Assembly (NCBI GenBank): GCA_044892525.1
Contig: CM097888.1
Location: 6,883,410-6,946,000 of the forward strand
Direction of reading: 5' to 3'
DNA from: Schmidtea polychroa
Lineage: Eukaryota
Length of the DNA: 62,591 nucleotides
Shown: positions 21,096-61,755 of the stretch, piece after piece
Numbering within the stretch: the first letter of the stretch is position 1
Layout of the letters: every line of letters starts with the position of its first letter
Made by a program: the position numbers and the translations under genes
Notes under the pieces: generated by a model
Database searches by the model: none
What the model saw: only the letters and a program-made list of their open reading frames with translations
Told to the model about the DNA's origin: nothing

Positions 21096-21234
21096 TTCTT
21101 TTATGCCCCCCCCCCTGGAAAAATTCCTGCGGACGCCCATGCTCGGATCCAATAAATATAGAAGGCCCTGCATTTATTGGATCCGAGCATGGGCGTCCGC
21201 AGGAATTTTTCCATGGGGGGGGGGCATAAAAGAA
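21096..21234. repeat. Near-perfect ~62-bp-arm fold-back made from a hAT-like terminus plus 16 bp of flank
   Basis: ttcttttatgccc...cctgcggacgcccatgctcggatccaataaat | 14-nt loop | atttattggatccgagcatgggcgtccgcagg...gggcataaaagaa. Confidence 0.9.
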
Positions 21235-22139: not shown

Positions 22140-22910
22140 AGCCACAAGAGGCAATTCAAGAGGGGTCAATGTGTCAAATGTGGATCTGAACATTACTTGA
22201 ACCAATGTCCGGAACTTTTAAAAATGAAAGTAGCAGCACGAAAAAATGAAAAATGAATACATGGGAAAAGCAAGATGAGGCTGGCCGGGCTGGTCAAATC
22301 GTAAAATTATCCGAAGATAAAATTGTGGAACCGAAGGCAGTGGAAGTGTTGAGCAATTGGGAAAAAGATAAACCAGCATCAGAGGATCTGACGTCCGAGG
22401 CGGCGGTTATTGATATTCAGGTTGATGAATGGAAAATTAATCGACTAAAAGAAGAGCGGGATAATGTTCAAAAGGCCAAAGAAGTTTTGGATTTAACAGA
22501 AAAATTGAACGAATCATTGAACAGTCTCAAACAACACGGATCATTTGAACTCGTTTGCACGCCTCTAAAGATGTACACGAAAGATGTACAATTGTCAATT
22601 CAACACGAAGCAATCAAAGAACGACTTGGTAGGATACCTATGAGAACATTAAGTGAAAACTGGTCACTAAATGAAATGCAACAGGTAAAAGTGTGGAATA
22701 TTGAATTGGTGAAAAATGAAGAAAGAATAATGGAGATATTATACCTAAACAAAATGAACAGGGACAGTTGCTTGTCCGAGTATGTCGATGGTAGGTGGAT
22801 AATCCACAGTGATATTTAAACATAGGTACGTGGTGCGGTTGCGTATATAATAGGAAGATGGGTATGTCAGAGTTATTGGAGATTGAGCAAATGAAAAGAG
22901 TTATTGGTAC
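22140..22910 (+). mobile_element. BEL/Pao LTR retrotransposon gag-pol remnant
   Basis: CVKCGSEHYLNQC (Cx2Cx3Hx4C knuckle) followed by M.V..R; downstream EDGYVRVIG resembles D..G..RV.GR. Confidence 0.5.
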
Positions 22911-22952
22911 CAATAACTGAGGTTTGCCACTAAAGTAGATTGGGTTGTTGAT

Positions 22953-23123
22953 CCGCTGGAAGGGATCAAGGAGGGGGGAAATGTTTCCGCCGATTTTGGC
23001 GTTTTTTATCGCGTCTGTGTGCGCGTTATTAGCAGACTGCTATTCGGAGTAGTGTGCGCACACAGACGCAAAGAGTTGGTATGTTTTGTTTTTTATATGG
23101 ATTGTTATTAATTAGTTTTTTAG
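22953..23123 (+). promoter_or_regulatory. Cassette module copy C: imperfect hairpin (22953-22992), perfect 14-bp inverted repeat (23011-23024/23056-23069) and mini-intron (23079-23123)
   Basis: gcgtctgtgtgcgc/gcgcacacagacgc; TG|GTATGT...TTTTAG|A (45 nt); ATG at 23200. Confidence 0.8.
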
Positions 23124-23199
23124 AATTGATTTATGTTTCTATTAGAAACGAATTTGTTTTACCAGGAGATTTCGTTGGAAAATATAAATTTTTGCTAAA

Positions 23200-23301
23200 A
23201 TGGCTTCAGGTGTTAAATGTGATTCTTTAGTGGAAGAATATCTTAATTAAATTGAATTTCAATATACGATCTTTGGATTGAATAAACTGAAGGATAGAAT
23301 T
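23200..23301 (+). pseudogene. ADF/cofilin N-terminal fragment with an in-frame stop at codon 17
   Basis: [26 protein letters not shown] matches the cofilin start MASGV..D plus Y.IF. Confidence 0.65.
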
Positions 23302-23487
23302 ATTCAAAAAGAATCTACTCTCTATTTGGTTTTGAGATTACGAGGTGGCATGCAAATATTCGTGAAAACTCTCACTGGCAAAACGATTACACTCGAATTT
23401 AAATCAAGCGATACTATTGAAAATGTGAAAGTAAAGATTCAAGACAAGGAAAGAATTCCTCCCGATCAACAAAGACGAATTTTCGCT
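23302..23487 (+). pseudogene. Polyubiquitin fragment spanning a unit-to-unit junction
   Basis: [16 protein letters not shown]|[16 protein letters not shown]...DTIENVK.KIQDKE.IPPDQQR.IFA. Confidence 0.95.
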
Positions 23488-23661
23488 GAAACTGGGGAAT
23501 TTGGTACTTCTTATGAAAAGTTCAGATTACACATGATCGAAACATATGCTAAAGGAGGTTGCTATGCATTATATGACTATCAGGGTACTTTGGCGTTTAT
23601 TTAATGGAAACCAGAAACAATGAAAATCAATAATCGTATGATCATGGTTTCTTCAAAATCA
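23488..23661 (+). pseudogene. ADF/cofilin central and C-terminal fragment with an in-frame stop at 23602
   Basis: SYEKF...CYALYDY...LAFI*WKPETMKINNRMIMVSSKS matches cofilin cRYAlYD..., W.P......kM..aSSK. Confidence 0.7.
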
Positions 23662-23664
23662 AAG

Positions 23665-23790
23665 ATTGCAACCAATATCTATTCAAAGAGTCATATTTCT
23701 GCTTCAAGGGATAAATCCATGATTATTTGGGATGACCTTGAAGATGAGGCTGCTATGTCAGATGATGGTCAATTTGTATTGTCTGAGTCA
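23665..23790 (+). pseudogene. RACK1: RACK1 (WD40) N-terminal fragment with internal deletion
   Basis: IATN...ISASRDKSMIIW...SDDGQFVLSES compared with RACK1 IATTP...ILSASRDKTIIMW...SSDGQFALSGS. Confidence 0.7.
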
Positions 23791-26160
23791 ATTGAAATTA
23801 TTTCTCTTTCTTGTTTTCACTCGAAACACTATTATTTTGAAGATAAAAACGGTAAATCAGTAAATTGTCTTCATTTATTTTTATACAGTATAAAATATAT
23901 AATATATATAACAAAACAAAATATTTATTTTGTATTGTCAATTCACTAAACAAAGTAAGTTTTTATAGTAAATATAATCCATAGAAATCGAACAAGTTAT
24001 TAAAAAAATAAAGTTGCAACAAGTAACGAAGGAAATAATAAAGCGGGCGATACCATATGCAGTGTGCCGAAGCTTCACAACTTGTGACTCACTCACAAGC
24101 AAGAGCCAAACACTTTGTATTTTACGTACACACATGATATGTTTGCGAGTGTGGCACACCGAATGCACTATGTATAAGCTGATCATTAGCCAGTGTCATT
24201 CTTAATTGTCTCCCTGTTAGATTTTAGATCCCGTTGATTTTTACCCATCGTTTCGTCGGATTTTCAGTTTAATCTGATTTATTTAAATAATAGTACATTT
24301 AATCATTAATAAAATTNNNNNNNNNNNNNNNNNNNNNNNNNNNNNNNNNNNNNNNNNNNNNNNNNNNNNNNNNNNNNNNNNNNNNNNNNNNNNNNNNNNN
24401 NNNNNNNNNNNNNNNNNNNNNNNNNNNNNNNNNNNNNNNNNNNNNNNNAATCGACATAACTTACATAAAGCCCAAGATAAATAAAATCTTTGTAATAAAC
24501 TAATATATAATCGTATTTATTAAAAAATCGACTATATCGAAGTTATTTTTGTTATTCACGAATTTTCGACAGAGCCTTTTTCAAGTGATTTTATTAATCA
24601 TAATCATATATAATTAAAATAAGTAATTGTGAATAATAAATTTCAAATATTTATATATATTTTGTTTTGTTAATATCTTTATAGCATTGTTTTAAATGCT
24701 TTTTTATATTTGCCATTATTATGTCTTGGATTTCTTGTATTGTATTAGGTAAATTTTTTATTTGTTTTACAATTTCCTATAAAAATTAGAGCGCATGTAT
24801 GTAATACAAGACACTGATAAATTCCAAATATCATTACGCAATAATATATCTCGGTTGGTTATATTTTATTTTAATTAGTTACTTCTTATCCTCCATTTTT
24901 AGATCAAAGTATTTAATTTACGATTATAACTATTAATGTATTAGTATCCGTGTACATATTATTTTTTGACACTGTCTTTAACAAATGCTAGAAATACTAG
25001 TACTGGATAAAGAAACAATTCACTAGCGTTAAATTTTATAGCGTCACATTATTATTTGGAATAATTGCTTTGATGTGTGTCATGTTTTACGATTAGAAAT
25101 ATGATCGCGATGAAACAGGTTAAACAATTAAACTATGATTCGGGGTGAATTGCTCGCGATATGATTATTTGTTTGGAAGTTATATCCTGCATGCAATCGA
25201 TCATTTAAGATATAACTTGAAAGAGAAATTTCAATTATAATATTGCAGGTATTTAATCCGTAATTTGACAATATAATTATTTTAATTACTAAAAAGTACC
25301 CAATCGCTATTTATATCAATATTTGATTCCTAATCTATATTTTCATATGATAAGGTTCCCCACCTCATCAAGTACTCCAACAATTCTATCGGAGATTTTA
25401 CGCATATGTTCCACTATCCTATTTAGGAGCCTTTGCCGGTTTTGTAGGTACCTGATAGTTGACGGCGCAAATTCTTAGTTTCTGAGTATATATAGATTGT
25501 CTCCCCTCATACTAGGGCAACTAAGTGATTATTGGATTTCACTACTTGATGTATGATTAGCTCTGAAATTCTCCAATGATTTATGTATTTATTCTTGAAT
25601 AATAAATGAGATTAATTAATTAATTAATTTGTTTTATTATCCCATCTACCCCTAGGGACCCCAAATAATTTTAAAAAGGGAACCTAACTTTCAAAGTGCG
25701 GAAAAAATGAACTGTACAATGATGATTAACTTTATAATACGCTGCATAAAAATCGCGTTGACCACACATCCTTAACTTTTTCGCGACTCCAGCAGTGCAG
25801 GAATCATCACCGAGAGTTGTATGCTTCTACGATGAATTGTGGTAGGGTTACATAGGTTCGTCATCAAGGGAATTGCCTGATATTGACATCGGACCGACAC
25901 AACCTACATTAAAGTGATGATGACGACATTAACCGCCGATTATATCTGCTAGGCTAACCCAAGCCTAAGAAGACATCATGGATTCAGTCAAATGAACCAC
26001 GATATGAATGAAGACATTAACAACAATAATGAAAATAGAATAGTTATGGTAATACAAGGCCGCGTAGTGATACGTGGTGGTATAGATGATTCGCACACCA
26101 CCAATCGATCGAAGAACGAGATTCCATGCATACATGTGTTGACACGTTGCATTAACCACG

Positions 26161-26560
26161 ATCCATAGGTAATCGAATGGGAAAGGAAATTATTCACGAG
26201 AATGAAGACGCATACTAACGTCACAATAATAAAATCATCCAGAGACGAGACTAGTGCACACTAAGGACTTTAAAATCCACAAATGTCTCAGTAATTATAT
26301 TTACGGTCGCGCTATTTATACAAATTTTTCATACTTGTCAGCTGGTTTAAAAAATATTATATTATTATTAAATCATTACAATTATTAAATCATTACAATT
26401 GATTAAATTATTGCAATTGATTAAATTATTACCAGTTGATACTATTATTGTTATATCATTCATGATTATGAAAAATTCTATTAATTCGTATCATATTAAA
26501 AATTATTTTATAATATTGATTATATATTAAAATCGATTTGTCATCAAAAATTGTTATTAT
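26161..26560. repeat. Interspersed repeat copy; a near-identical copy at 28573-28890 interrupts Rep copy 1
   Basis: ccataggtaatcgaatggga...gaatgaagacgcatactaacgtcacaat...gtgcacactaaggactttaaa...ttacggtcgcgctatttatac shared between the two sites. Confidence 0.85.
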
Positions 26561-28400: not shown

Positions 28401-28403
28401 ATC

Positions 28404-29470
28404 CACTTTCTTTTATGATGTTCTGATAAAGCTTCTCTTCCCCATGTATTCGTCACAGAATTGCATTTTTTCTGGTTTCTGGCCAAGCTGGGTTTATAAT
28501 GTTGCCGAGTTCATTTCCGAGTACGATTCTCTTTAAACCTGCTTTTAATATATCAGTCCCGTATTTTACATTCCATAGGTAATCGAATGGGAAAACAAAA
28601 TTATTCACGAGAATGAAGACGCATACTAACGTCACAATATTAAAATCATCCAGAGAAGAGACAAGTGCACACTAAGGACTTTAAAACCCACAAATGTCTC
28701 AGTAATTATATTTACGGTCGCGCTATTTATACAAATTTTTCATACTTGTCAGCTGGTTTAAAAAATATTATATTATTATTAAATCATTATAATTATTAAA
28801 TCATTACAATTGATTAAATTATTGCAATTGATTAAATTATCGTATCATATTAAAAATTATTTTATAATATTGATTATATATTATATATTACAATTGCACG
28901 ACCACTAATCGTCAATTATAATGCCGTCGTAATCACTTTTTCTGACTCCAATTTGCCGAAATCTTGGCGAATAGTGATATGCAAAGTGACTTAAAGCAAA
29001 ATTAGTTTTTTGCCTGTGCTTGTTTCACCGATGATGACAATAGTTCTGTTTGCAATAGGAATTTTTCGAATAACCCACTCGTCATTGAATTTTGGTTGAG
29101 TCACGACACCTAATTTCCTGTAATTTAGAACTCGATTTATAATTATATCTAATACTTTGACAAATAAATTATCCGAGCTTTGTTCCCATTCGAATGAAAT
29201 CAAACGGTTTCGCCCAAAAATCTTCATCGGGTATCGGTCGTTTGGTGAATTTGTAGAAATAACCATTGGGAACTGTTGTGTGAACTTTGAGCACATAATC
29301 GAGACAAACCATCATATCTTTATATTAGAACCCCGCCACCCATGACACTTCTGGATTTTTTTTTAATGGTCAGTAATTAGTCGAATTTTTGAGTACTTCC
29401 ATGGCCTCCTATTTCTTGCCTGAGAACAACATTTTTGCAGATTTTTTCGAATTGTATTATTAAATTTTTC
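28404..29470 (-). mobile_element. CRESS-DNA-virus-like Rep (HUH endonuclease + SF3 helicase) remnant, copy 1, interrupted by a repeat at 28573-28906
   Basis: VVLRQEIGGHGST (pre-motif-II-like), CLDYVLK (YxxK), IVIIGETSTGK (Walker A, frameshifted), DYDGIIIDD (Walker B), NVKYG..LKAG..RIVLGN (B'/C), NAIL*RI (Arg finger with CGA->TGA). Confidence 0.8.
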
Positions 29471-30524: not shown

Positions 30525-31406
30525 CAGTCCCCCAAAAAAAGTCGTGAACAGTTAAATTTATTCATAATTTCTTTACAAACTTCATAACAACCCAAATAAA
30601 GTGAAAGACATTTACAATTTGAAACATCATAATTAACAAAATGTTCAGAACCTTTAAATAACACTGGGAGCTGCCTCTTTTGTCATTACACAAGAAATGA
30701 ACTTTTCCAGGTCCATAAGCAGTGAAGCTTCTCCATAACACAATAGAAGATGGATGTTTGAGTAGGGAGTGTAAATTTTGATTTATCATCCTTTTTCGCC
30801 ACACACGTTGGCGTCTTGAATTATTTACCACAGATATTCTTGTTTCATCAGTGTACATCACTTTTTTTCAAAAATTCTGAAGGCTCCTTGACATACTTCT
30901 TTGGAAACATTACTCTCATTTGTCTGTGCCCTTTTGTTAACAGTAGGTTCTTGAGTGGTAACGAGGATCTAAATCCCCTGACAGTTTGACTACTAATGTT
31001 TATATTCTTGTGATTATCTCAGCTTTGCGATTTCTATTGCCGTGTCGATGAACTCTGCTTGAAAGTATCTTCTTTCGACCACAATTTGAATATTTGTTAG
31101 ACAAATCATTAGTTGTTCTGTACTGTTTTACCACTTTCGAAATTACTCCAACAGAAATATTGATGTTGCTCGCGATTTTTCGATAACTTTCCCAAGTTTT
31201 CAATTTATTGATGATTAAAGATCGAATTCTTCTATTCAAGACTTAGTTTCGTGTCATGTGTAAAAATAAATGGAGTTTAAACGAAATAATGATTCCATTG
31301 ATATGAAATAAATGAAACAACATTAACTATATATACACTAACAACAAACATTTAGACTTTTACATACAGAAAACAATAGGTGTTCACGACTTCTTTTGGG
31401 TGACTG
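30525..31406 (-). mobile_element. Internally deleted Tc1 element (882 bp) with TIRs and TA target-site duplication
   Basis: TA|cagtcccccaaaaaaagtcgtgaac ... gttcacgacttcttttgggtgactg|TA. HTH region (SYRKIAS..GRKKILS) and YTDETR...VWRK...KH..SIVLW. Confidence 0.92.
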
Positions 31407-33714: not shown

Positions 33715-34390
33715 TTATTCGTTTAGAATATTTGAGAATGCTCCACTTTCTTTTATGATGTTCTGATAAAGCTTCTCTTTCCCCATGTCATATACATGGA
33801 TTGGTCACATAATTGCATTTTTTCTGGTTTCTGGCCCAGCTGGGTTTATAATGTTCCCGAATACCAGTACCGTATTTTACATAATTCGATGTCGAATAAT
33901 TCATATCGAATTAATTAATTCCTCTGGCTCCCATTTGTAAATCGTCTATTATGATGCCGGCGTAGTCACTTTTTCTGGCCCCAATTTGCCGAAATCTTGG
34001 CGAATAGTGATATGCAAAGTGACTTAAAGCAAAATTAGTTTTGCCTGTGCTTGTTTCACCGATGATGACAATAGTTCTGTTTGCAATAGGAATTTTTCGA
34101 ATAACCCACTCGTCATTGAATTTTGGTTGAGTCACGACACCTAATTTCCTGTAATTTAGAACTCGATTTATAATTATATCTAATAATTTGACAAATAAAT
34201 TATTCGAGCTTTGTTCCCATTCGAATGAAATCAAACGGTTTCTTTCAAAAATCTTCATCGGGTATCGGTCGTTTGGCGAATTTGTAGAAATATCCATTTG
34301 GAACTGTTGTGTGAACTTTGAGCACATAATCGAGACAAACCATCATATCTTTATATTAGAACCCCGCCACCCATGACACTTCTGGATTTT
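33715..34390 (-). mobile_element. CRESS-DNA-virus-like Rep remnant, copy 2; cargo of cassette D
   Basis: NPEVSWVAGF*YKDMMVCLDYVLK (motif III), RTIVIIGETSTGKTNFALSHF (Walker A), YAGIIIDDL (Walker B), WEPEELIN. Highly similar to copy 1. Confidence 0.82.
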
Positions 34391-34505
34391 TAAATTTTTT
34401 GATATATATATATATATATATATACAAACACAAATGTTCCATTTCCTTTTGACGATTCCAATTTCGAAATTCCCTGATAAAGCAACTCTTAACTAAAGTC
34501 TAATT

Positions 34506-34632
34506 CTACAATTTTCAATAAAAAACAACTCAATTTTTTATTACAATAAAAATTACCCATTCCTCGCGTCTGTGTGCACACACTAATACGACATAGCAGT
34601 TTAACAATAACGCGCACACAGCCAGTCAGAGG
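34506..34632 (-). promoter_or_regulatory. Cassette module copy D, partly deleted: mini-intron (34556..34506), inverted repeat and one hairpin arm
   Basis: ctcgcgtctgtgtgcac...gcgcacacag|ccagtcagagg. Minus strand GG|GTAATT...TTGTAG|A (51 nt). ATG at 34442 is in frame with Rep motif III. Confidence 0.75.
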
Positions 34633-35933
34633 GAGATATATACGTTGTGAGGGTTGAGCCTTATTTTATAAAACACGAAGTGTCCGAACCACCGACTAGT
34701 ATTATCTATTTAATCTAAACCCAACAATATAAATATTTATGGTTGCTTGCATTGCATCTATGTTGATAGGGAGAAAAAGAATTGTGTTGTGGGAGAAGAT
34801 TGGTTAATAAAAAACATATTTACATTTACTCATTATATTCAATTCATTGTAAGTAAATCAGAAAAAATTAAAAACCAGAAATTCCTTAACTTTTAAAAAA
34901 AATAATTATACATTAAAAAGACTGCCACTCTCCAGGTGATTACATTGTCAGGAGTGTAGCTATCTCGATTTTGAACCTAAGTTCTCTGTGGTCACGTATA
35001 TAATATGTTTAGTTTCTGGCTCATATTGAAAATATAAGTTATTTGAAATAATCCACTGACCCGGAAATTTTTATTGTTATTTCTTAGTCATAAGAAGTCC
35101 AACAATTAAGGTTACACGATTAGGCTCGTTTCTGAGATAGTTTCTCGCTACCGATCCATTTTCGAAGCATAATATCTCGTAATAATTTGCACTAATTCTT
35201 GAGTATGTCGACATTTACACTCTGAAATGTGATTCGCACTTTCACCAAGTTCAGTGGCTTCCAATATATATTGATTCTAATTATTACTGGTTCTATTTCG
35301 ATTATCTCGTTCTTAACTCTTACTAGCACTTTCTGAAAATTTTCCAGACTTTAATTCGAATTTATGAATCTTTTATCGATTTTCATCAATTCATCTTTTT
35401 TGTGCTATTCTCATATACTACACATTTTTTTCTTCGCATTGCCACTTCTCTCCTTGACCAATCTTACACCTGTCCCATTCCTTTAATTACAAATATAATT
35501 TAATTTTCATAATTTCATAACCCCAACAATGTGAACCAGAGTGAACATGTAAGAAAACATACGGTATTAGAGCTATTTCTAGTGTTGAAAACGAAAAATT
35601 ATATGCATTTATTGGACTTCTATATGCACGCAGCGCAAATGAGACTAAAAATATGGATATATTATATTTATGGAATAAGAGATTTTTCGCGACAATTATG
35701 AATCGAAATCACTTTACTAAAATCATGAGATTTATTCGGTTAACATAAGTAAACGAATCCATCTCTTACAAAACGATAAGTTTGCTTTGATCTCTGAAGT
35801 TTGGTAAAGATTTATCGATAATAATTTCCAACATAAGCTCATTTTATATTTACTCAATAAATGCTCAATAAACCTGACAAATTTGGCATACAATTCTGGT
35901 TGGCTTCCGATGTAGGTAATAAGAATAGTTTTG

Positions 35934-40100: not shown

Positions 40101-41745
40101 CACTTTTGCTTATTCTATTTCTACTTTATCCGTTGTATATTTTAGATCGTTTCCCTTTTGCCTTATTCTCAACATTTTAGGGGTTTTATTTATTTGGTTG
40201 CTTATTCTTATTCTTTTATTGATATTTTATTGTTTCTCCCTATTTACTACCGGGATTTGGTGGTAATTTATTTTTTATCCTATTTCATTTAATTTTTCCC
40301 GGGGTTCGTTCCCTATTTGATCCAGTTTTCGCCACCTCCACATTTAGCCCAACAAATTTACAAATGATCATTTTATCAATGTATAGAAGAAAAATTCAAG
40401 ATACGGATTTATTAATCCCTGCTGTTTATCTCAGCGTGCAAGAGATCGATGGCTCCTGTGTAGCACAACAATCGTAAAGTCGATGAAAGAATTGGTTAAG
40501 CAAGTGGGATTATTTTGGGGCTCCCAGGGAACACGAAAGCAGCTCAACGTACTTTGTGTTCGCTTAATTTAATAATTTGCAATTTACCCAAGGATAATAA
40601 TTTATCCTCCAAAAATTCTTTACCTGTGAAACAATCTGTAGTAATATTCAAAGTCGTAATTTTCTTTGACTGCAATATTTCCTGGAATTCTCTTCTCTCT
40701 CAGTCTATTTACAATCGCAAATTTCTCCAATTTATACTCTGTTCAAATCAATTGGTTACACTGATCGAAATGTTGATTCAATCTGTTGATTGAACTAATT
40801 TGTTTAGTTAATGACAATGTAATTCTCCTTCGACTAAAGTGCAAGTAATTTCCTCAATTGATAACGTTTTTCCATCGTTCTACTATTTTTAGTTTCTCTT
40901 GCAAATCTCCAAATTTTGCGTCCTAAATTGTTCGTCCCTGGTTCTCATTTTGAACCAGTATTTATATTATAATATAATTATTTATAATATTAATAGTAAT
41001 TTTATAATTACTATTTATAGTATTAGTAACATTAGTTGTTACTAATTATTGCTTATTTTTATTTAAGGTATTTAAATGTTTATATTCTATTTTAAGTAAT
41101 TTGTTGTTTTATTGTTCCAAGCTCCAGGCCTATCCCTAACAAGTCTTACCCCCTAAAAGATTTTCGTCTCGAAAACAAGATAAGTAACCCTAAGAAAGAC
41201 TTTAAATAAAATTACAATAAAATATAAAAATTTATCAGATATGACAAATCAACTTCAATTATCTACACAAAACCATAAAACAAATGTCTCAAATCACAAA
41301 TAACTGGATCATTAATGTAAAAAGTTGAATAATCACAATGTCAAATAACTGGATAATCAAGTCAATTTATATACATGAATGAATTCGACGATAACTGTTG
41401 AGAGGCAACGTTCTCTGATTAGATATCCAGATCGTCGCGATCTGGTTCTGGGATGTTGTAAAGGTTTAATTCCATTCTGCTGTTGCCATTCGCAATAACA
41501 TATTGCTGCTGCAGCTTCTTTTTCCTCTTCTGCAAGACTTCTGGCTAAAAACTCACTGCCAAAGCCTTACCATCCAAAGTGCTTGTTAATATGACCGTAG
41601 ACACTAAGTAAGGGATTCCGTCTACGTCATATGTATCATACTTTTGGTTGTTGTTTATTACCATTCTAGTGACTGGTAGGCAGTCATACTCTTTGGCCCT
41701 GGGTTTCCATTTACTGTCCAGTTACGAGGAAAGACACATCCAATT

Positions 41746-42610
41746 CCGGTACCTCAAGAAATTTTCGATCAAATGGGAGAGGCACGATATTTCACAGTTA
41801 TTGATTTAAACAAAGGATACAATCAATTTAGAATAAAAGAGGAAGATAGAGAAAAGACGGCGTTCTCTGATGGCAAAGAACTTTATGAATTCAATGTGTA
41901 GCCCGAGCTACATTCCAACGAGGAATGAATTCTGTGTTACGAGGTATTCGACATGCATTGGTGTATATCGACGATATAATAATATTTTCAAATGAGTTTG
42001 AAGAACACCTCAAAGATGTAGAAACCGTATTTAAACGGCTCAAAAGTGCAAAATTAAAAATCAAACCATCGAAATGTGAATGGGGCAAAGCAGAAGTAAT
42101 TTATGTCGGACATATAATATCACGGCGAGGGTTACAAACTAATCCAGATAACATCAAAAAAGTGGAAGAGTACCCATTACCAAAAGATGCCGATGAGGTC
42201 AGACAGTTTTTAGGTTTGGCTAGCTATTACAGAAAATTTATGAAAGATTTCTCTCATATCGCACAACCATTGAATACGTTACTAAAGAAAAACAATAAAT
42301 TTATTTGGGGACAAATGCAACAAAGCGCTTTCAATACATTAAAAGAGAAATTAGTTACAACTCCTATATTAAGATGTCCAGCACCGATGGAGATGACGGC
42401 AATAGATATTCTGGGACCATTACTGGAAACAAAAGGAAACAAATACATTGTTGTTTTTTGTGACTATTTTACTAAATGGCCGGAAGCATACGCTATTCCA
42501 AACCAAAAAGCCGACACGATTGCTAGAATATTTGTGGAAAACATAATATTTCGCTATGGTACTCCAAAGAAATTGCTAACTGATCAAGGGAAGAACTTTC
42601 AAAGCGTGAA
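41746..42610 (+). mobile_element. Ty3/Gypsy pol remnant: RT joined directly to the integrase core, RNase H deleted
   Basis: YFTVIDLNKGYNQF..EKTAF, PATFQR, YIDDII, FLGLASYYRKF, then AIDILGP...DYFTKWPEA..TDQGKNF. Confidence 0.92.
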
Positions 42611-45600
42611 GCGGATTTTATGATGTTTCGGATGAAGGTAGAAGTGTCGAAGAAATCGGAGGATGAGGGTGAGCTCAATCAATTGAATTAAATAAATTAT
42701 GCGAACGGACCTTGTTTTTTTCGTCCTCGGAAAATAGAAAATAAATAAATTAACAAATAGATAAATTGATTAAATAAATAAATTAACAAATATATAAATT
42801 GATTAAATAAATAAATTAAGAAATAGATAAAGTGATAAAAAGAAAAGGTTAATGTGTACGTAAATAAGTGAACAAACAGATAAATGAACTAAATAACTAA
42901 AAAATAAATAAATAATTGAGTAATTCAGTAAATAAATAAAGTAAAATGAGCAAATAAAATAAATAAATGTTATAAATAAATGACTGCCAATTGATAAATA
43001 AAGTAATAAATAAATGACTGACTAGTAATTGATGAATAAATTAACATAACTAAATAACCATGGGTAACCTACTGGGGCGGGAGAATAAAATTATAACCAA
43101 TAAATATTAGTTAGTAAGTAATAGTTTCATAGTAGCTTCAATTCCCAGTAGGAACAAAGGCTAATCAGGAAGAGGAATACAACTATCCCAATAGAAATAT
43201 TATCCAAAATAAAAACAAATGTATGCTGAATATTTTATTCATTAGAGTAAAATTTTTATTGTTCGTCATCAGAGTCCAGCAAAATAGGACTTTGGATACC
43301 ACAGTCCTATTCCTTGCGTATATTGCAAGGTGGGCGTCTCTCGAGCCTGTTGGACGTATCCACGCAGGCCAAGGTGCACTTTAAGCCCTTTCGACTCGGT
43401 GGTAAAGGGACCCTGAAAAATGAAAATAAAAACCTGTTAGCATATCAGTCAAGTAACCATTCCACAACATCCAGATGTTCAAACTTGGGTGCCGTAACAA
43501 CCTAAATTAGTAATAGTTGAAAAAAAATGAAATAAAGACTATTTAAAAGTCCGTAGCATGGCGCCCTCGATATATAGTTAGTTGCAGAGAAATAGTACAT
43601 CTTTATGAATTACGTAATAAATACTAAATTAAAACAAGTTCAATTTGTTGAAAATACAAATACCTAAGTATGAATACGGTTAGTAGTGATAGGAAAAATG
43701 CAAGATTTAAAATAATAATTATTATTGGGAAAATTACTAAAATCAATGTGAAATGTTTTTAATGTGTTCTCCAAAATAAAAAGCGCCATGAAAGGGTATA
43801 CTTGGATTTTGAAAAATTTTGACACATAGTTATATCATTGGCAATTGAAGTAGCATCATTGAATAGAGTACACACCACTTTGTTTACACATATAAGAATG
43901 ATATCATAAAAGAAAAATAACCCCCCAAAAAAAATTAATAAAAGAAAAAATTTCTGTCTAAAAATGAATAGAATTCTCAGTTACCTATAATATACTTTTT
44001 TTATATATCATTTATTTTCCCCCTTTTTTATGGAAAATATTTATTGAGTGTATCGGTAGATATTGAGAATTTACTTTATCAAAAAAAATATAAATTAATG
44101 AATAAAACAAATTTATCGTAGTTTTCGACATTATTTCCTTTGTCTGCTCTTTTGCAGGCTTTGATGTGGATTTTTCTGCATTTTGTGGCATGCAATGATC
44201 TAGAAACGGTAAAACAATATCATCTTTGCAAGCTACCCAAATGAACTCACTTAAAACAATCGTGCATTTAACGTCATTCCTCGGTAAGAATTCGATATCG
44301 CTAGGGCCGATATTAAATTGAGACCCAAAAAAGCTAACTGAATTTATTTAAAAATATCCTAGCTAACGATTTATAGTAAAAAATAAATGAAGACCTGAAA
44401 ATCCAACCGAATTTATTAAAGAAAAGGCGACTACAGCTAACAAATTATATCAAATGTTGACACAAACTAAGTTTATGAAAAATTACAATCCGAACTGGTC
44501 CCTGAATATCTATCTCATTATATCGATGTAAAGAAAATAAAAGATTTGCGTTGTGTTATACGTTCCTCCTGCAAGACCGGTATCTCAGAAATCTTAAAAT
44601 TACCGGTTAAATGATTATTTGGGTGAATACAGATTGGTAACATTATACTGACAGTAAATAGGTGATTTAAACACCCTAGATAAAATTTTTAATTTTTATT
44701 ATTAATTAAAATCGTAATTTGAAAAGGAAAAGGAATCTGAATAAGTAAACCCAACTTTAATTTAATTTGGATTCGTCTGAATTATAATTTTAAAAAATTG
44801 TAGAATTGTTCGATCATACCAGCTGCAGCGAGGAAGACCAGGAAAAGGAGTGATTACCCAACTCAGGACGAGGTACAGAATAAATTTTTATTATCTACAT
44901 GTGGATGCATGTGTATAGCCATCCATAATTTCTTTAATTTACAGTATTCAAATTATTCGAGAACCTAAGGAGGGACCGGGAGCAAGCCCAGCAACAGGTG
45001 GAGGGTCTCCAACCCACAGTCGCGAAACTTAGAGGACGATGTCTGGAGCTCGAAAGCACTTGGTTCAGCCTGGCCAAATTGAAAAATCGAATGATTCAAA
45101 TCCAACAATTTCTGTCTCAAGTAGACCAAGATCAAACCGAAATCCGCGCTCTATAGATTCAAATACGCACACTAGAGACCCAACTGAACCAGCGGTTCAT
45201 CAACACGGTGGTAACCGCACAAATCCGACTACTGCCAACGGAGCTGACCGAAATTTATCCACTGGCTCAGATGAGTAGATCGAAACGTAAACGGTTGGGG
45301 CGCAACACTCGAGAAAAACAGAACAGGATCAGATTAGCGGAGCAGAGGCACGGGGAGAATCAGGGCTCACCCCAAACATAAAACGATTTGTAATTAGACA
45401 TGTATCCGAAATAAATAATTTGATGAATTGTTGTGGATCTTGACGTGTTTGGTGTTTGATTGATCAAAGAACGAGCAAATATTTGGGAAAGAAACTAAGA
45501 TGAAGGACCAGAGCAAATCGGCCACATCTTCTATCGATAGTCCATGAACCCAAGGAGTGCCTGACAATTATAGTGCAAATTATTCGCTCACTTCTTTCGA

Positions 45601-50054: not shown

Positions 50055-53000
50055 TACACCTAACTGCGAAATATAACATTATCTATAATCTAAAAAAAAA
50101 ATCAATAAATATATATTATAGGAACACACAAACTTACCTGTGTGTAGAAATTTAATGCTGCAAAATTTAACATATTTATTATAGGAATCTAAAAAGTGAG
50201 AGAAAATAATTAAGCATACAAGCACAGCACACATAATGAAAAATACATACAAAATTAAGTAAAGTGTTTTTCATGCGAAATATACATTGATTAACATATA
50301 ATTAACATATCAATATTTTCAAATTATTTAAAAAGTTATGTACAAAAAAACTTTTGAATCAGATTCTGACTGCTCTACCTTGAGCTTTATTGAAAAAGAA
50401 GTAAATACATCGTAAGATTTAATTATAAAATAATTTAGAATATAAATTTCTTTAGATTTACAGATATTGAAGAAGATCCTTCGACATCTTTGAATTTGCA
50501 GGAAAAAAATCGCAAATCGTAAATTTTAATAAATTATTTTAACAAATTAATATTTTCATAGAATTACAGAAATAGACAAAATTCGAAAGAAGATTACAAA
50601 AACTTAAAAAATATTTTATCCATTCTTTACTAAATGTCTTTAAAAAATAAATGTTTGGTGATTACTTTACATATTTACAATTATAAAAATATCTAACTTA
50701 CATTTTTACGAAATAAATCCAAATAAATTCAAATCAAATACCATAAAATTCCTAATAAAACACCTGAAATTTAATTATCAATGTTATATATTATCAATAT
50801 TATAAATGCTGACTAACAGTAATATTTAAGAACTTGAATAATGATCTCATAATTATATAAAATCAAAATTCAAGTCCTAAAAATTACTTCAATTCAAAAA
50901 CTTACCTTAAAACGATTTTTGAAAAATTGAAAAAATGAAATTAAGTTAACATTGTCATATAATTGGTGACTCACCTCAGGTGGTGTGCACACCGACGTAT
51001 ATTATAGACAATGTTAACTTTCGCTGTTAGGTGTAAATCTGATTTTTTTTCGACACCTTTGCAAAAGAGAAGAATAGACATGTTCTATCTAGTTACTTAT
51101 AATCTCTGACCGACACCGACAATTTTTCATTTTACATACTCACAGGAAAAAAATAGCGGTGAAATCCATTGATTCAAAGGTTTTCTGAAAATCTTTAAAA
51201 AAATTTTAAATCAATGAATTTTTCATTAATTTGAAAGTTTTCATATTTGATTTGATGTTTAAAAGAGAGTAAATACATCATTTCACAGTTGATTTGAATT
51301 TGAAAAAATTAAAAAATCATCATTGTTAACAATCGAAAAACCGTTGATTTACCATCTGAAAAGTAAATCAACAGTTGTAATTTTTGTGTGTGTAGTTTTC
51401 AAGTTTTTCTGTTACGATTAAAACTTTTAGTGCACCTCTCCGGGCCCCCTTTCAATACCGGGCCCCGGGAAAAATACCCGTCTCCCCCTCTCTTCGGCCC
51501 TGTTCTGTGCGCTCGAATGTTATCTTGAAGGAAATGGCAATTTTCAAAACTGTTTCCGTGCAGTCAACGCCTTTTTTGTTGACACTCGTATATATATATG
51601 ACGTATATATTTATTTTTTAATCTTTTTTGTTAGACGTTTTTCAATATTTGTCTTAAATTAACTTCCCAAGGTTCGAGTGTAGGACCAAGTATAGGTCAC
51701 CTTCATTATGACAAAGAGGTTTTTATCAGTTTTCTTTATTCTGCGAATTGCTTTTATTAAGTTTCCTATATGTAAACAATTGTTCGCTCTAATGTCTTTA
51801 CCAAAAGTAACAGCATATATGTGGCAAACCTTTTAAATGCTTTGAATTTTTGTCAAAAATAATAATGTATGCCTTGGATTCTAACTTTTCGATATTTTTT
51901 ATTTTAGAATTGAATTATTCAGCTATAATTGTAATGAAATAAGGGTTAGGGTTATAATGGTAGTCTTAAGGTCCTTATCCACAATTTTCTAATTAATATT
52001 GCATTGGTATTCCTTCAGTTTTGGTCTATCTGGATACAAATTTTCTGACTTTGCTACCGGTCAGGCATAAATATTTTATCCTTAACTGTCATTGTTTATC
52101 TTTTATTGAATGGTTTTGATTGTTTTTTTCTTAAATAGCTAATTTTGCAACCCTTTCTCATAGTTTATTTATTGCTTTTCATATATTTTGTACATAAATT
52201 CTTTTAATTCCTAAGTGAAGTTTTTAAAATTCTTATCTCTAAGTTTCCCTTCAAAACAAAAATGCTAAATCTATGACCAGCATCATACAGATTATTTTAT
52301 TACAAATGATACACAAGATATTGTTGCATTTTCAGAAGTAATTCAATTTCCATCTATCTTTAATTTGTATTTTCCGATTGACTTCGAGAGCGACATTTCC
52401 TTAATAAAAATTTAGTCAAAATATAATACTACTTACGCGTATTTGTCAGCAACCACGCACAATTCAAAATAAGAATGTATTGCTTTTGTAAGCTTTTATT
52501 GTAGCAGAAAACTACGTATAAATAATATAATTTTTCCTAAGTGCATAAAGGATTGATACAACCCCCAATAGCCCTACCTTTGCTAATTCTATCACATTTG
52601 TAAAATTTCAAAAATTTTTAAAAATATATTTTATATATTAAATATTAAAGAAAAAATATTCTAAAATATGCAACTTTNNNNNNNNNNNNNNNNNNNNNNN
52701 NNNNNNNNNNNNNNNNNNNNNNNNNNNNNNNNNNNNNNNNNNNNNNNNNNNNNNNNNNNNNNNNNNNNNNNNNNNNNNNNNNNNNNNNNNNNNNNNNNNN
52801 NNNNNNNNNNNNNNNNNNNNNNNNNNNNNNNNNNNNNNNNNNNNNNNNNNNNNNNNNNNNNNNNNNNNNNNNNNNNTAGATAGCTATTATATTCTTATCC
52901 ATTCTATATATCGGCCACTAGGTCAAAGAACCCAACTAAAGCGCACTGCCAAATGTATATAAATTTAATTCCTTCACTTTGAAACACCAATATAAAATTT

Positions 53001-57333: not shown

Positions 57334-57440
57334 GCTCGCGTTTGTGCGCGCGTTCGGTTTGTTCTTGTGTTTGCGTCTGTGTACGTGTTAATATTTATAT
57401 TATTATTTCAATTGATTTACTCGCGTCTATGTGAGCACGC
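57334..57440 (+). promoter_or_regulatory. Degenerate module copy F: three direct half-sites of the CGCGTCTGTGTG motif upstream of HSP90
   Basis: ctcgcgtttgtgcgcg, ttgcgtctgtgtacg and ctcgcgtctatgtgagcac, then a T-rich leader with ttggaatttcgaa words, then ATG at 57683. Confidence 0.5.
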
Positions 57441-57682
57441 CTTCTTGAATTACTTGTTTTTCTTGTACAAGGAATTTTTTTTGTTATTGGGTTTTGCTTG
57501 GATTTATTTATTGGAATTTATATTTCTGGATTGTGCTCGAATACTGTTTGAATTTGGAATTTCGAAGAATTTTGTGGATTTTTTAATATTTTGTTTTCAA
57601 TTCGTGAATATTTAAATTTTGCTTGATTTTTTTGGAATTAAATTGTTGGAATTTCGAATTTTTCTTCGATTAAATTGAAATA

Positions 57683-57887
57683 ATGAATGACTCTGAGTCG
57701 TTTACATTTCAAGCAGAAATCGCTAACAGTTGAGCGTTATTAACGATTCTTTCTATTCCGACAAAGAAATACTTTTGCGTGATGTGAATTCAAATTCTTT
57801 TTTGGATACAGTCAGAGTTTATGAGTAGTATATAGTGAGGACTCCAACGCACTTTCAAGGTCATCCCAATGTTCAAATCAAATATTG
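57683..57887 (+). pseudogene. HSP90: HSP90 5'-end fragment, frameshifted
   Basis: MNDSESFTFQAEIA, then QLSVINDSFYSDKEILLRDVNSNS.LDTVR, compared with [43 protein letters not shown]. Confidence 0.85.
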
Positions 57888-58631
57888 ACCAATCGAATCT
57901 TTTTAATTTAAATTTTATTTAATTACTTTTATTTAATTATTTAATTCATTACATTTTATTATATTTTTATTATTATTTGATTTTAATTAATATTTTGTTA
58001 ATTTTTAATTTATTAATTAATTGATTCATTATGTTTATTATTATTTTATTTTANNNNNNNNNNNNNNNNNNNNNNNNNNNNNNNNNNNNNNNNNNNNNNN
58101 NNNNNNNNNNNNNNNNNNNNNNNNNNNNNNNNNNNNNNNNNNNNNNNNNNNNNNNNNNNNNNNNNNNNNNNNNNNNNNNNNNNNNNNNNNNNNNNNNNNN
58201 NNNNNNNNNNNNNNNNNNNNNNNNNNNNNNNNTATTTAATTATTTAATTAATCTTATTTATTATTATTATTTTTTTTTACATTTTTATTTAATATAGTCT
58301 ACCAATAACGTAAATTATAACAAGAATATTTCAATTAGAACAAATTTTTAAATAGTAATTATTCGATTTATTATAAAATAAAACGTCGAGTTATTTTAGA
58401 TAAACTGGGTATTAATTTTTCAGAAAAAAAAGTTTTTCATGAAAATAATTATTCTTACTTAAAACTAATTATCTAAATTAATTGGACAAATGAATTATTA
58501 AATGATAAAACACATTTTAATTAACTAAGTCAAATTATTCACAATATATATTTTATTATTCACATAAATTTAATTGTTAAAGTGCTTGCTTCGATTTGCA
58601 TTCATTTCTAGACATAGCAGTTGCAATATGC

Positions 58632-60470
58632 ATTTGACGAATCTTATAGTGACCGTATGCATAGCTTTCATCAGAATTGAACCAATACCTTTTATCTTCC
58701 AAACATTGGAGAGCTCGTTTTTTTGTCATGAAAGTATACATGTGAGTATCTTATTCTTTTTTGTGGGATGCTCACTTTTCCACCATCAGTATTCACTTTT
58801 TTGTAAGCTTCATGTGTAAGATTAGAATTGGTAAGACTTATTCATTTGGCTTATAAAGTGTCTTTATCGCCTTGGAGTGAGTAGCACTTGGGTGGAAGGA
58901 ACACCCATTCCTTTTATTGATTTCCTTTATTCTTATCCTTGACTTTCCCGATTACAGAACAAATTTTATCTGAGAACAATGGATCGGTCACTGGATAATT
59001 TGAAGTATCTAGGAGCCCATCGGCAATCATTTTTGGATACAGCTGTAAACGTAAATCAACATTTTTACATTCTAAAAAGAAAGAATCTGTGTCACCGGCT
59101 AAGATATTGATTTGACAATTTAACTCTTCTCTATAACTCTGTAGTTCTTTATATTGAAACCGAAGTTTAAGTACCGTTTGTCCAATATACATTGTTCTAT
59201 CTAAACTAGTGGCCTGCCGAACTTTGATTTGAACTTCTATTCGGACCAAAGTTCAAACACTTCGGAAACTTCGGACTTCGGCAATACGATCCAAATAGTG
59301 AAATTTTGCTTGAGCGATAATAAATTATTATTGTTCCGTGATTATTTATTATACTTATTATTATTTATACTTATTATAAAATTATATAGAAATAATTGTG
59401 TCATTTTTCTGTCATAAAATTGTGTCTCATAAATGAATGATTTATTCATTAGGTAAAATATTAGACTGAGCAGAACTACCAGTTGAGCATCCGATTCACT
59501 TTCCACATCATCACATGCGAAAATCTCCATAGCTCCATACCCCTCCCCAGTGTACATAATATATATAAAAGCCCATCAAATTTGAAATCGAAAATTTTAA
59601 ATATATTTCTTTAACAAAATTAATAAATTAGTTTAAATATTAAAAATAAATGAAAGTAATAAATATGGCTAATGCTATGAGAAGTAAAATTTGGAATTTC
59701 TTTGAAATCAACGCTGTGGATGAATCTTTTGCTAACTGTGGGACATGCAGAATGAAAATGAAACGTGGCGGCAAGGATCCATTTGAAGAGGAAACGCGGA
59801 ATGCTAGTTTGTCAACTGCAACAAGCGGAATGATTATTCCAAGTGTGCGTGTACTTCAGGTAGTTTTGACGAGACCAGCAAAGGAGGGTGACGACCTCTG
59901 CATTCAAACAATCGATGTGGTCCGTTTTGACTACTAATAAACTAATGAAGATGTATATATTTATATAAACACATGTATTTTTTTATTTTTTCGTTTCACG
60001 TTACTTTGCTTGTTGCGAACAGATCTATGTTATATAATTTACATCCATGTTTCAAAAGACAACAAAATGAACACTTCTCAATATCATGTATTATCACCCA
60101 TTGTATAATTTTTTCAGTTTTATTGACGATTCATTTTAATAAATCGCCGTAGGTCATTGCAGTAGGTACAGGTCCCTAAATTATTTTCACGCACCAGACA
60201 TTTGATTCGACTTCGGCTTCGGCCAAATAGTAATTTAAAAATTTGAACTTCGGACTTCGGCAAAAAAGTCACTTCGGCAGGCCCTTAATCTAAACACACC
60301 ATTTCTTTATCGAGTATAAAAGCTATGAGGTCATCCGCAATCTTGATGCTACGACGAAACATAGGATGACTACAATAAGTTATCATTCTCTTGCTTTTGT
60401 TGCATAATCTCAAGTTTATACGTTCTTCAGGTTTTCCACGGTTTTACCGTATAAACTGTTGAATAAGATC
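58632..60470 (-). mobile_element. Polinton/Maverick-type protein-primed DNA polymerase B C-terminal remnant, split by a hAT insertion
   Basis: NSLYGKTVEN (60460-60431, motif B), HPMF..LD|RTMYIGQTVLKL, GDTDS (motif C), LDTSNYP...GKVKD, KCYS, EDKRYW...YAYGHY. Confidence 0.85.
59207..60287 (+). mobile_element. Non-autonomous hAT element (1081 bp) with BED zinc-finger remnant and 8-bp TSD atctaaac
   Basis: atctaaac|tagtggcctgccgaa ... ttcggcaggccctta|atctaaac. ORF 59650 contains RSKIWNFF....ANCGTC; subterminal cttcgg repeats. Confidence 0.92.
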
Positions 60471-60499
60471 CAAATAAATCATTAAAATTTTATTCTTTA

Positions 60500-61014
60500 A
60501 CACTGTCATTTTCATTTCCCCGTCTGCATTGCTGCTATCAATCCAAGGAAGAGCTTCGATAAGTATTTCCTCATTGCAAATTGTGCTTTCATTTATTGCT
60601 TTCGAAGCTTTCATTTTACTGTGCTCAACAACACTTGAATTGTCGAATAATAAAAATCGACACTTTCTACATTTGAATTGAACTAAATCTTTTGAAGATG
60701 CTGATAACTTAAATTGAGCTTGAGAAACTGTATTTGCGCATTTGTTGATTTCATCACTGCAATTCATGTTGAAATATATCTTTAATTGTTTCATGAATCC
60801 ATCATTTGGACATATAAATGACTTTTCCTTAATTGTCTCAATCGCATCGTTTGGACCAACTTTAAAATGTTAAATAAGCCGTCAAAATAATTCCACTTCT
60901 TGATATTCCACCAAATTTTCTGCCATTTTCAATGAATTCACTGGTTTCATCGAAATAAGAAATAAGATCTTGGCTTGGAACATCATAAGCTTTAATAAAT
61001 TTGTAATCAAATTC
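60500..61014 (-). pseudogene. DUSP12: DUSP12/YVH1-like dual-specificity phosphatase fragment lacking the catalytic HCxxG segment, frameshifted
   Basis: FDYKFIKAYDVPSQDLISYFDETSEFIENGRKFGG|ISRS..LTAYL, ICPNDGFMKQL, and C-terminal zinc domain FKCRKCRFLLF...EH...IEALPWI. Confidence 0.8.
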
Positions 61015-61056
61015 TTCTTCTTCAACTGAAGGATCACATTTCACACCTGAAGCCAT
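61015..61056 (-). pseudogene. ADF/cofilin start fragment (MASGVKCDPSVEEE) fused in frame to DUSP12
   Basis: aaaATGGCTTCAGGTGTGAAATGTGAT is nearly identical to 23200 aaaATGGCTTCAGGTGTTAAATGTGAT. Confidence 0.65.
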
Positions 61057-61144
61057 TTTTAAAAACAGGAATTTACAAATTTTGATTCCAACTCCACTTT
61101 CGAACATTTACACATTTCAAACAAAAAACCAAATTCTAGAATTT

Positions 61145-61329
61145 CTACAATATCAATATAACAATCAATTCACAAAAAAAACACAATTAACAATTACCTA
61201 CAATATCAATCCATTGCTCGCGTCTGTGTGCGCACACCAACAATATTCGGTCTAACCAGACCGCGCACACAGACGCGATAGAAAAAAAACCGAATAAATG
61301 CCAGTCAGAGGCAATCCCCCTCTGACTGG
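61145..61329 (-). promoter_or_regulatory. Cassette module copy E, the only ungapped and undegraded copy: mini-intron (61197..61145), perfect 16-bp IR (61218-61233/61263-61278) and perfect 11-bp hairpin (61301-61329)
   Basis: tcgcgtctgtgtgcgc/gcgcacacagacgcga; ccagtcagagg-caatccc-cctctgactgg; AG|GTAATT...TTGTAG|A (53 nt). Confidence 0.85.
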
Positions 61330-61555
61330 TCGAAACAACTGTAGTTCTTTAACTTATAATAATCTCGCTAAAATGAATCTATACTAGCTGCTCTCATTTG
61401 AGTACTGTAATCAATATATCCTTTGAAAATAGCGACTTGCTTGAATTCTACAGCGCGATTAACTTTTGTGACTTTTGCACCGTAACTCAACCATTCCGTC
61501 AAAACTCTACTATTAACTACATAGTTATTCTTAGGTTCGTGTGATTACTTTAATG

Positions 61556-61755
61556 ATTAAAATTATTTCCGATAAAGATGCTGGAACTTTAAATATTAAT
61601 GACAATGGAATCGGAAGGACAAAGGCAGATTTGATCAACAAATTACAAACAATCGCTAAATCTGGAACTAAGGCATTCATGAGAGCACTTCATGTTGGAG
61701 ATAATTTTTCAATGATTGGACAATTTGGAATAAGCTTCTACCCATCTTATGGAGT
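61556..61755 (+). pseudogene. HSP90: HSP90 ATP-lid fragment
   Basis: [65 protein letters not shown] compared with [55 protein letters not shown]. Confidence 0.92.

What the first reader, a model, noticed from the sequence alone, without database searches (positions are those of the whole stretch)
33715..34632. CRESS-virus-like Rep directly downstream of, and in frame with, module D
Seen: the leader ATG at 34442 (MEHLCL, then a (TA)n run) is in frame with NPEVSWVAGF*YKDMMVCLDYVLK. Further on are Walker A GETSTGKT and Walker B IIIDD. Established: YxxK plus SF3 helicase in this order defines CRESS Reps. Inference: this is the decayed master or autonomous member that could act on the module hairpin. 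It is the key link between the cassettes and a replication mechanism.
Basis: partly seen in the sequence, partly recalled or inferred. Interest (0 to 1): 0.82.

Follow-up and report, generated by a model that had tools for sequence, protein, structure and literature searches.

The report
Dead planarian virus Rep in cassette
This is a broken remnant of a flatworm DNA-virus replication gene sitting behind the same hairpin and leader that elsewhere in the region heads scrambled pieces of ordinary host genes; it cannot be the active driver, and whether it is a passenger or the element's own former gene is still open.

Summary
The Rep is real but dead. Window 34455-33766 (minus) is a CRESS-type Rep remnant. 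Its closest named relative is the Rep of the planarian virus-like element PEVE. A mir-753 match also points to a planarian host, and an integrated relative, PIVE, is already reported.

YxxK, Walker A and Walker B are present, but not in one frame. The ATG frame closes after 28 codons. Motif I is not found, motif II is degenerate and motif C is deleted. Rep similarity probably starts just before the ATG, so the ATG may be internal.

Module D is genuine but damaged. It lies 121 nt before the ATG, against 128-247 nt in five other cassettes that carry host-like gene pieces. A second Rep copy shares the main lesions and has no module, so both descend from an already dead ancestor.

An autonomous member is refuted. 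Captured cargo (about 0.5) is slightly favoured over a decayed native gene of a PEVE-like master (about 0.35). No evidence was found that the hairpin is a Rep origin. Comparing the module with PEVE/PIVE DNA would decide it; this could not be run here.

The parts
34564..34632 (-). Module D: box (34632-34622) joined by a deletion to a 5' arm remnant (34621-34611), then loop and 3' arm (34579-34564). Its loop is closest to module C.
   Evidence: C-D loop score 45, reached by 0 of 500 shuffles
34443..34563 (-). 121-nt C-poor leader of the same type as in the other cassettes. Its last 15-40 nt may already be Rep-derived.
   Evidence: 3 C in 81 nt; 0 of 222 coding windows that low
34419..34442 (-). 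ATG plus EHLCLYI, a degenerate motif II (His kept, second metal-ligand position changed). A frame change against the PEVE Rep falls at about 34443.
34401..34424 (-). (TA)n microsatellite inside the endonuclease domain
34203..34391 (-). Rep piece 1: stop at 34358, motif III YxxK (34328-34317), stop at 34247, and an 18-codon gap in the oligomerisation region near 34240
   Evidence: (E 1e-04 and 3e-08)
33716..34202 (-). Rep piece 2: about 40 extra AT-rich nt with a frame change, then an SF3 helicase remnant (Walker A 34060-34037, Walker B 33955-33941). Further frame changes near 34015, 33970 and 33856; motif C stretch missing; stops at 33913 and 33807.
28402..29360 (-). Second Rep copy: no module, 5' end truncated, 14 mismatches in 452 nt against D, interrupted at 28588-28906 by foreign DNA, retains the motif C stretch that D lacks
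4..823 (-). Cassette A: module plus an open 188-codon RING-like ORF
4736..5815 (-). Cassette B: module plus Rab1-like and proteasome-subunit in-frame fusion, followed by a SelR/MsrB piece
23009..23800 (+). Cassette C: module plus cofilin start, ubiquitin, cofilin and RACK1-like pieces, all in one frame
60447..61329 (-). Cassette E: palindromic box, module, then cofilin-type start and dual-specificity phosphatase pieces
57336..57900 (+). Cassette F: three arm-like words in direct orientation (no hairpin) plus an Hsp90 5' piece

Best explanation
A fragment of a PEVE/PIVE-type CRESS Rep gene became cargo in a planarian gene-capturing cassette, died, and was then copied passively.

Shown: the cassette head (box, inverted arm pair, C-poor leader, ATG) is one homologous family. 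It is followed by different gene pieces in each copy, and in D the piece is a Rep that begins near motif II.

Inferred: the head is the promoter or 5' end of a non-autonomous mobile unit. It picks up abundant transcripts by template switching near its start codon, which yields in-frame mosaics, and viral Rep RNA or DNA was one such template. The enzyme that moves the unit is not encoded by this copy.
For: - 5 of 6 cassettes carry non-Rep, host-like pieces in the same position and orientation.
- Arm-to-ATG distance is 121 nt in D versus 128-247 nt in the others.
- The D leader has leader-type composition, and shares words with the other leaders up to 14 nt before the ATG (words picked by eye). 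Local alignment of leaders C-D and D-E was reached by 3 of 300 and 5 of 300 shuffles.
- No motif I match in the leader (score reached by 44 of 150 shuffles).
- D and copy 2 share the stop at 34358, the 18-codon gap and the frame changes, and each lacks sequence the other has. Copy 2 is itself patched with foreign DNA.
- No conserved nonanucleotide in 5 of 5 loops.
- Multi-parent, in-frame, intron-free chimeras are a known product of RNA template switching (PMC5131818).
Against: - A viral Rep in 1 of 6 cassettes is an unlikely random capture compared with housekeeping mRNAs (inference).
- The other five cargoes appear to begin at their own start codons. D is deletion-prone, so its Rep 5' end could simply have been deleted from a native gene.
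- The absence of a module in copy 2 is uninformative, because it is truncated 3' of where the module would lie.
- No LTR, shared 3' end, poly(A) tail or target-site duplication was found to identify the capturing element.
- Intron loss was not tested against parent genes.
- D-A, D-B and D-F leader alignments are at chance level.
Confidence: 0.5

Rival explanations
1. Decayed master. The module is the terminal repeat, origin and promoter of a PEVE/PIVE-like element whose own gene is this Rep. D lost its Rep 5' end by deletion, and cassettes A, B, C, E and F are non-autonomous derivatives that swapped in host sequence and were mobilised by Rep supplied in trans.
For: - The closest named relative is a planarian element, with an integrated relative in S. 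mediterranea (PMC3198968).
- Arms are far better conserved than loops or leaders, and fold strongly in A, B, C and E.
- E has an 11-bp palindrome at its outer edge, and A and B hit scaffold gaps at that same loop.
- Hairpins at the ends are general in Rep transposons (PMC10288648).
- An ATG-GNF reading just after the 3' arm lies about 40 codons before the motif II His, near the 42 seen in two relatives (by eye; not significant).
- PEVE segments are flanked by inverted repeats (recalled).
Against: - No conserved loop nonanucleotide.
- F has the arm word in direct repeats and no hairpin, which suits a protein-binding promoter word.
- The leader is non-coding in composition.
- No capsid or parvovirus NS1-like ORF among 132 ORFs scanned.
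- D has the most damaged hairpin of A-E.
Confidence: 0.35
2. Chance juxtaposition. A PIVE-like insertion landed in or near a cassette, and later deletions fused the leader to the middle of the Rep.
For: The region is a transposon graveyard with nested insertions, and D has many deletions.
Against: Orientation, distance and start-codon context match the other cassettes, and the Rep runs from near its 5' end to its 3' end.
Confidence: 0.12
3. Active autonomous gene, read through introns or another genetic code (for example flatworm mitochondrial).
For: One AT-rich extra stretch of about 40 nt lies between the two main frames.
Against: Table 9 changes the Walker A lysine. Stops, several frame changes, in-frame gaps and loss of motif C cannot all be introns.
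Confidence: 0.02

Closest known systems
[quoted passage not shown]
   Same: Closest named protein: 39% over the helicase stretch, E 5.6e-05 (name), and 82 of 216 aligned codons over almost the whole protein. Same YxxK-oligomerisation-SF3 layout.
   Different: PEVE was not found integrated (PMC3198968) and has a second, parvovirus-like helicase gene. This copy is chromosomal, broken and headed by the cassette module. Unnamed relatives P0005, P0006, P0004 and P0001 score higher than PEVE.
[quoted passage not shown]
   Same: An integrated planarian element. Its PIVE_3p protein is listed beside the PEVE large-segment Reps in Fig. S7 of PMC3198968.
   Different: Sequence not available here, so identity with this locus is untested. 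No association with captured host genes was seen in the passages read.
LTR-mediated chimeric retrocopies (Tan et al. 2016, PMC5131818)
   Same: Multi-parent, often in-frame, sense-strand gene pieces behind an element's promoter.
   Different: No flanking LTR sequence was identified. The head here is an inverted arm pair.
Helitrons and Replitrons (HUH transposons)
   Same: Terminal hairpins and non-autonomous derivatives. Helitron gene capture is recalled.
   Different: Helitrons have a Y2 Rep with an SF1 helicase, and Replitrons have no helicase (PMC10288648). This is a Y1 Rep with an SF3 helicase.

Membership tests
CRESS-DNA Rep | Motif I near the N-terminus | tested here: not met
   Profile of 5 relatives against 34547-34418: score reached by 44 of 150 shuffles. 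Leader composition is non-coding.
CRESS-DNA Rep | Motif II (HUH/HUQ metal ligands) | tested here: inconclusive
   EHLCLYI is in the top 0.054% of 117,902 sites, 36 codons before the Tyr (37-43 in 9 relatives), but the second ligand position is Cys. Profile rows were chosen after the resemblance was seen.
CRESS-DNA Rep | Motif III YxxK | tested here: met
   Aligns with DYCTK and DYVQK of P0002 and P0003.
CRESS-DNA Rep | SF3 Walker A and Walker B downstream of the endonuclease | tested here: met
   in a different frame from motif III.
CRESS-DNA Rep | SF3 motif C / sensor 1 and arginine finger (positions from relatives; names partly recalled) | tested here: not met
   Motif C stretch is deleted in D and present in copy 2; a stop falls in the arginine-finger region of both.
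CRESS-DNA virus | Stem-loop origin with a conserved nonanucleotide in the loop | tested here: not met
   0 of 5 loops have an exact match to the recalled consensus; the best matches have 1-2 mismatches and do not agree with each other. The only exact match within 250 nt of any module lies near F.
CRESS-DNA virus | Capsid gene on the same replicon | tested here: inconclusive
   No capsid family among 132 ORFs of 62 aa or more or in the frames flanking D. Divergent capsids could be missed.
Autonomous element | Intact open Rep ORF | tested here: not met
   ATG frame stops at codon 29; multiple breaks.
PEVE/PIVE | Rep of the PEVE large-segment lineage | tested here: met
   No tree was built.
PEVE/PIVE | Second, parvovirus NS1-like helicase gene | tested here: inconclusive
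   None among 132 ORFs in this window; the rest of the genome was not available.
PEVE/PIVE | PEVE-type flanking inverted repeats (recalled) | not testable with these tools
   PEVE DNA and the original paper could not be obtained.
Helitron | Y2 Rep fused to an SF1B helicase | tested here: not met
   Single YxxK and SF3 helicase (definition from PMC10288648).
Replitron | Y1 Rep without a helicase | tested here: not met
   SF3 helicase remnant is present.
LTR-mediated retrocopy | Gene pieces flanked by LTR-retrotransposon sequence | tested here: inconclusive
   No shared 3' flank. The ORF upstream of C is a dynein heavy-chain piece. A and B end at gaps.

The most novel reading that the evidence does not exclude
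Planarians host a family of gene-capturing mobile units derived from a PEVE-like ssDNA element. The hairpin module is its end or origin plus promoter, a Y1-SF3 CRESS Rep supplied in trans mobilises it, and derivatives carry in-frame mosaics of housekeeping mRNAs (Rab1, proteasome subunit, ubiquitin, cofilin, RACK1, Hsp90). D would be the fossil of the founding Rep-bearing unit. This would be a third kind of eukaryotic HUH transposon besides Helitrons and Replitrons, in an animal model organism.
Probability: 0.3. Interest if true: 0.82.

Novelty: new variant of a known kind. Interest (0 to 1): 0.46.

Why it matters
The Rep alone is one more dead viral insertion of a lineage already reported in planarians (PEVE, PIVE). 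What is unusual is its place: behind a conserved hairpin head that occurs six times in 62 kb and fronts scrambled host genes. My literature searches found no description of that cassette family.

If the module proves to be PEVE/PIVE-derived, it would show a CRESS-type replicon turned into a gene-shuffling transposon in an animal. It would also give the long-neglected PEVE element a testable origin sequence. If not, the Rep is a marker that viral sequence is captured by the same process as host mRNA.

Tried and rejected
- Pfam on the six Rep frames of D and copy 2: no Rep family. PDB with the helicase frame: 0 hits. Word-index protein search: 0 of 24 candidates passed.
- Motif I in the D leader: not significant.
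- Upstream LESSKGN as Rep-derived: only moderate support. 0.56% of sites score as well, three offsets were allowed, and it overlaps a word shared by the other leaders, so the exact junction stays open.
- Nonanucleotide origin in the loops: not found.
- Module as a known RNA family: no Rfam match at any module.
- G-run before modules C and F as an LTR polypurine tract: dropped, because the ORF before C is a dynein piece.
- Flatworm mitochondrial code: rejected.
- Shared 3' end among cassettes: none.
- GTDB genomes: 0 matches to the module pattern; 0 of 92 pattern hits confirmed as Rep relatives.
- Module words in paper text: 26 of 27 papers listed, none planarian or viral by title.
- No structure prediction or tree was run.
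- Unchecked: DNA around P0001-P0017 and PEVE in viral and metagenome contigs; cluster members of the hits; the PEVE paper; Grohme 2018; Repbase PIVE.

Full report
OBSERVATION. The six-frame translation shows the ATG at 34442 on the minus strand reading MEHLCL, a (TA)n run and NPEVSWVAGF*YKDMMVCLDYVLK in one frame. The stop at 34358 closes that frame after 28 codons, before YxxK (34328-34317). Walker A (34060-34037) and Walker B (33955-33941) lie in another frame. The title 'in frame with module D' is therefore true only for a short peptide. The window is an AT-rich draft scaffold with ten N gaps and remnants of LTR, piggyBac-like, Tc1-like and hAT-like elements. An Rfam mir-753 match (61.8 bits, cut-off 62, E 1.1e-11) points to a planarian; that mir-753 is planarian is recalled. 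The species was not determined.

WHAT THE REP IS. Pfam, PDB and the word-index search missed the decayed piece. The Atlas placed it with CRESS RNA_helicase clusters (0.95). phmmer returned 3 proteins at E<=0.001. [quoted passage not shown] The YxxK frame matches P0003 and P0002 independently (E 3e-08 and 1e-04). Of 14 relatives aligned, 5 hit Viral_Rep and 4 hit Gemini_AL1_M, and their profile finds the solved Rep 7lar at E 8e-17. A frameshift-aware alignment of the PEVE Rep to the DNA scores 171, against 28-43 in 12 shuffles, and spans residues 2-272 over 34455-33766 with 82 of 216 codons identical. Four unnamed relatives score higher, at 173-216. PMC3198968 reports that PEVE was not found integrated, and that an integrated relative, PIVE, exists in Schmidtea mediterranea (passages). 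Its Fig. S7 text lists PIVE_3p beside the PEVE large-segment proteins (supplement part 13 of 14). So an integrated Rep of this lineage in a planarian is probably not new.

STATE OF THE GENE. Against PEVE, one search places stops at 34358, 34247, 33913 and 33807, an 18-codon gap near 34240, and about 13 extra codons with a frame change near 34200-34150. There are further frame changes near 33856 and, against other relatives, near 34015 and 33970. The motif C stretch is absent from D. Motif I was not detected between the hairpin and the TA run (44 of 150 shuffles scored as well). EHLCLYI behaves as a degenerate motif II: top 0.054% of 117,902 sites, best site in its 170-nt neighbourhood, and 36 codons before the Tyr versus 37-43 in 9 relatives. 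Those profile rows were chosen after I saw the resemblance, and the broader profile did not pick it up. The PEVE alignment crosses a frame change at about 34443, so the 'leader ATG' may be a by-product of a break inside the Rep. The seven upstream residues score in the top 0.56% of sites, with three offsets allowed, but they overlap a word common to the other leaders. The junction is therefore uncertain by a few tens of bases. This copy cannot be autonomous.

SECOND COPY. 29360-28907 plus 28508-28402 matches D, with 14 mismatches in 452 nt. It shares the first stop, the 18-codon gap and the main frame changes. It starts abruptly at the position equivalent to 34391 and has no module. It keeps the motif C stretch that D lacks, and carries foreign DNA at 28588-28906, including a 97% copy of 26162-26429. 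Neither copy can be the parent of the other, so a dead Rep was duplicated. Thus 1 of 2 Rep copies has the module, but the other is truncated too far 3' to be informative.

THE MODULE. The 16-nt arm word has 12 matches in the window against 0.02 expected, grouped in six places. A, B, C and E have inverted pairs that fold well (z -3.5, -6.4, -5.4, -9.6). D has lost part of its 5' arm (z -1.2), and F has three direct copies (z -0.5). Loops fall into related pairs, B-E and C-D (0 of 500 shuffles each), so the heads are homologous. Each is followed by a C-poor leader (C 0.04-0.08) and an ATG, at 158, 132, 128, 121, 161 and 247 nt for A-F. The cargo is a RING-like open ORF in A (weak); Rab1-like, proteasome and SelR pieces in B; cofilin, ubiquitin, cofilin and RACK1-like pieces in one frame in C; a cofilin-type start plus a phosphatase piece in E; an Hsp90 piece in F; and Rep in D. 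The D leader is like the others: 3 C in 81 nt, matched by 0 of 222 coding windows. Its alignments with the C and E leaders were reached by 3 and 5 of 300 shuffles, while those with A, B and F are at chance. No loop holds a conserved nonanucleotide, no Rfam family matches a module, and no shared 3' end was found.

MECHANISM. Shown: a homologous head, interchangeable gene pieces behind it, and a dead, 5'-incomplete Rep in that slot. Inferred, best reading (0.5): the head is the promoter end of a non-autonomous unit that captures abundant transcripts by template switching, as described for LTR-mediated chimeric retrocopies (PMC5131818; abstract and one section read), and the Rep was one capture. 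Rival (0.35): the head is the end or origin of a PEVE-like element and Rep is its native gene. For the rival are the low prior chance of catching a viral Rep in 1 of 6 cassettes, the conserved arms, the palindrome at the outer edge of E, and the general use of hairpins by Rep transposons (PMC10288648, passages). Against it are the missing nonanucleotide, the hairpin-less F, and the absence of capsid or NS1-like ORFs among 132 scanned. Chance fusion (0.12) and an active spliced or recoded gene (0.02) are weaker.

COMPARISON AND NOVELTY. It is a CRESS-type Rep by motif III, Walker A and B and overall homology (motif definitions from PMC8780604, passages). It fails the tests for a working Rep and for a CRESS origin. 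It is neither a Helitron nor a Replitron enzyme. Ten paper searches (listings only unless noted) found no account of this cassette family. The PEVE paper, Grohme 2018 and Repbase were not available, and statements on PEVE's inverted repeats are recalled. Other papers seen as passages only: PMC6186406, PMC6431247, PMC11410931, PMC9241645 and 10.1101/551184. Supplements of bioRxiv preprints were not seen, and repeat libraries there could already name the module. GTDB scans were empty. The DNA context of the relatives in viral and metagenome contigs stayed unchecked.

VERDICT. A real, dead PEVE-lineage Rep in the cargo slot of an undescribed hairpin-headed cassette. Interest 0.46; 0.82 if the module proves to be PEVE-derived (probability about 0.3).

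Noticed in passing
57684-57900 (+) and 61550-61770 (+): Two Hsp90 pieces are contiguous in the protein (residues 24-77 and 71-141 of 8u1l). Cassette E and about 3.6 kb of other DNA therefore appear to sit inside the cargo of cassette F; the ends of this insert could define the mobile unit.
   Followed up: partly
57336-57436 (+): A sixth module-like head with three arm words in direct orientation and no hairpin, which suggests the arm word is a protein-binding site.
   Followed up: partly
61301-61329; gaps from 824 and 5816: An 11-bp perfect palindrome around a 7-nt loop at the outer edge of module E. Modules A and B run into scaffold gaps at that same loop.
   Followed up: partly
4-567 (-): Open 188-codon RING-like ORF behind module A. 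Atlas leads are viral RING clusters, but weak (recognition 2167). It could be a native accessory gene.
   Followed up: partly
4736-5580 (-): Rab1-like and proteasome-subunit pieces fused in one open frame, followed by a SelR/MsrB piece in another frame.
   Followed up: partly
23200-23800 (+) and 61018-61059 (-): Cassettes C and E begin with the same cofilin-type start (90% over 42 nt) although their leaders and loops differ. C strings four gene pieces in one frame.
   Followed up: partly
26162-26429 and 28572-28840: A 269-nt duplication (97%); one copy interrupts the second Rep.
   Followed up: partly
50823-50883 (-) and 53716-53785 (-): mir-753 precursor (61.8 bits) and a weaker mir-1175-like match.
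   Followed up: no
22253-22816 (+): Dynein heavy-chain-like piece (30% identity) just upstream of module C, with a perfect 20-nt palindrome at 22899-22918.
   Followed up: partly
1982-4538 and 6838-7789: An 85-copy 30-nt tandem array and a Q/N-coding-like repeat array, lying next to cassettes A and B.
   Followed up: no
21106-21223; 31003-31242; 35545-35745; 41680-42620; 59650-59934: A 52-bp inverted repeat (MITE-like), and remnants of Tc1-like HTH, piggyBac-like transposase, LTR RT/integrase and BED-finger elements.
   Followed up: no
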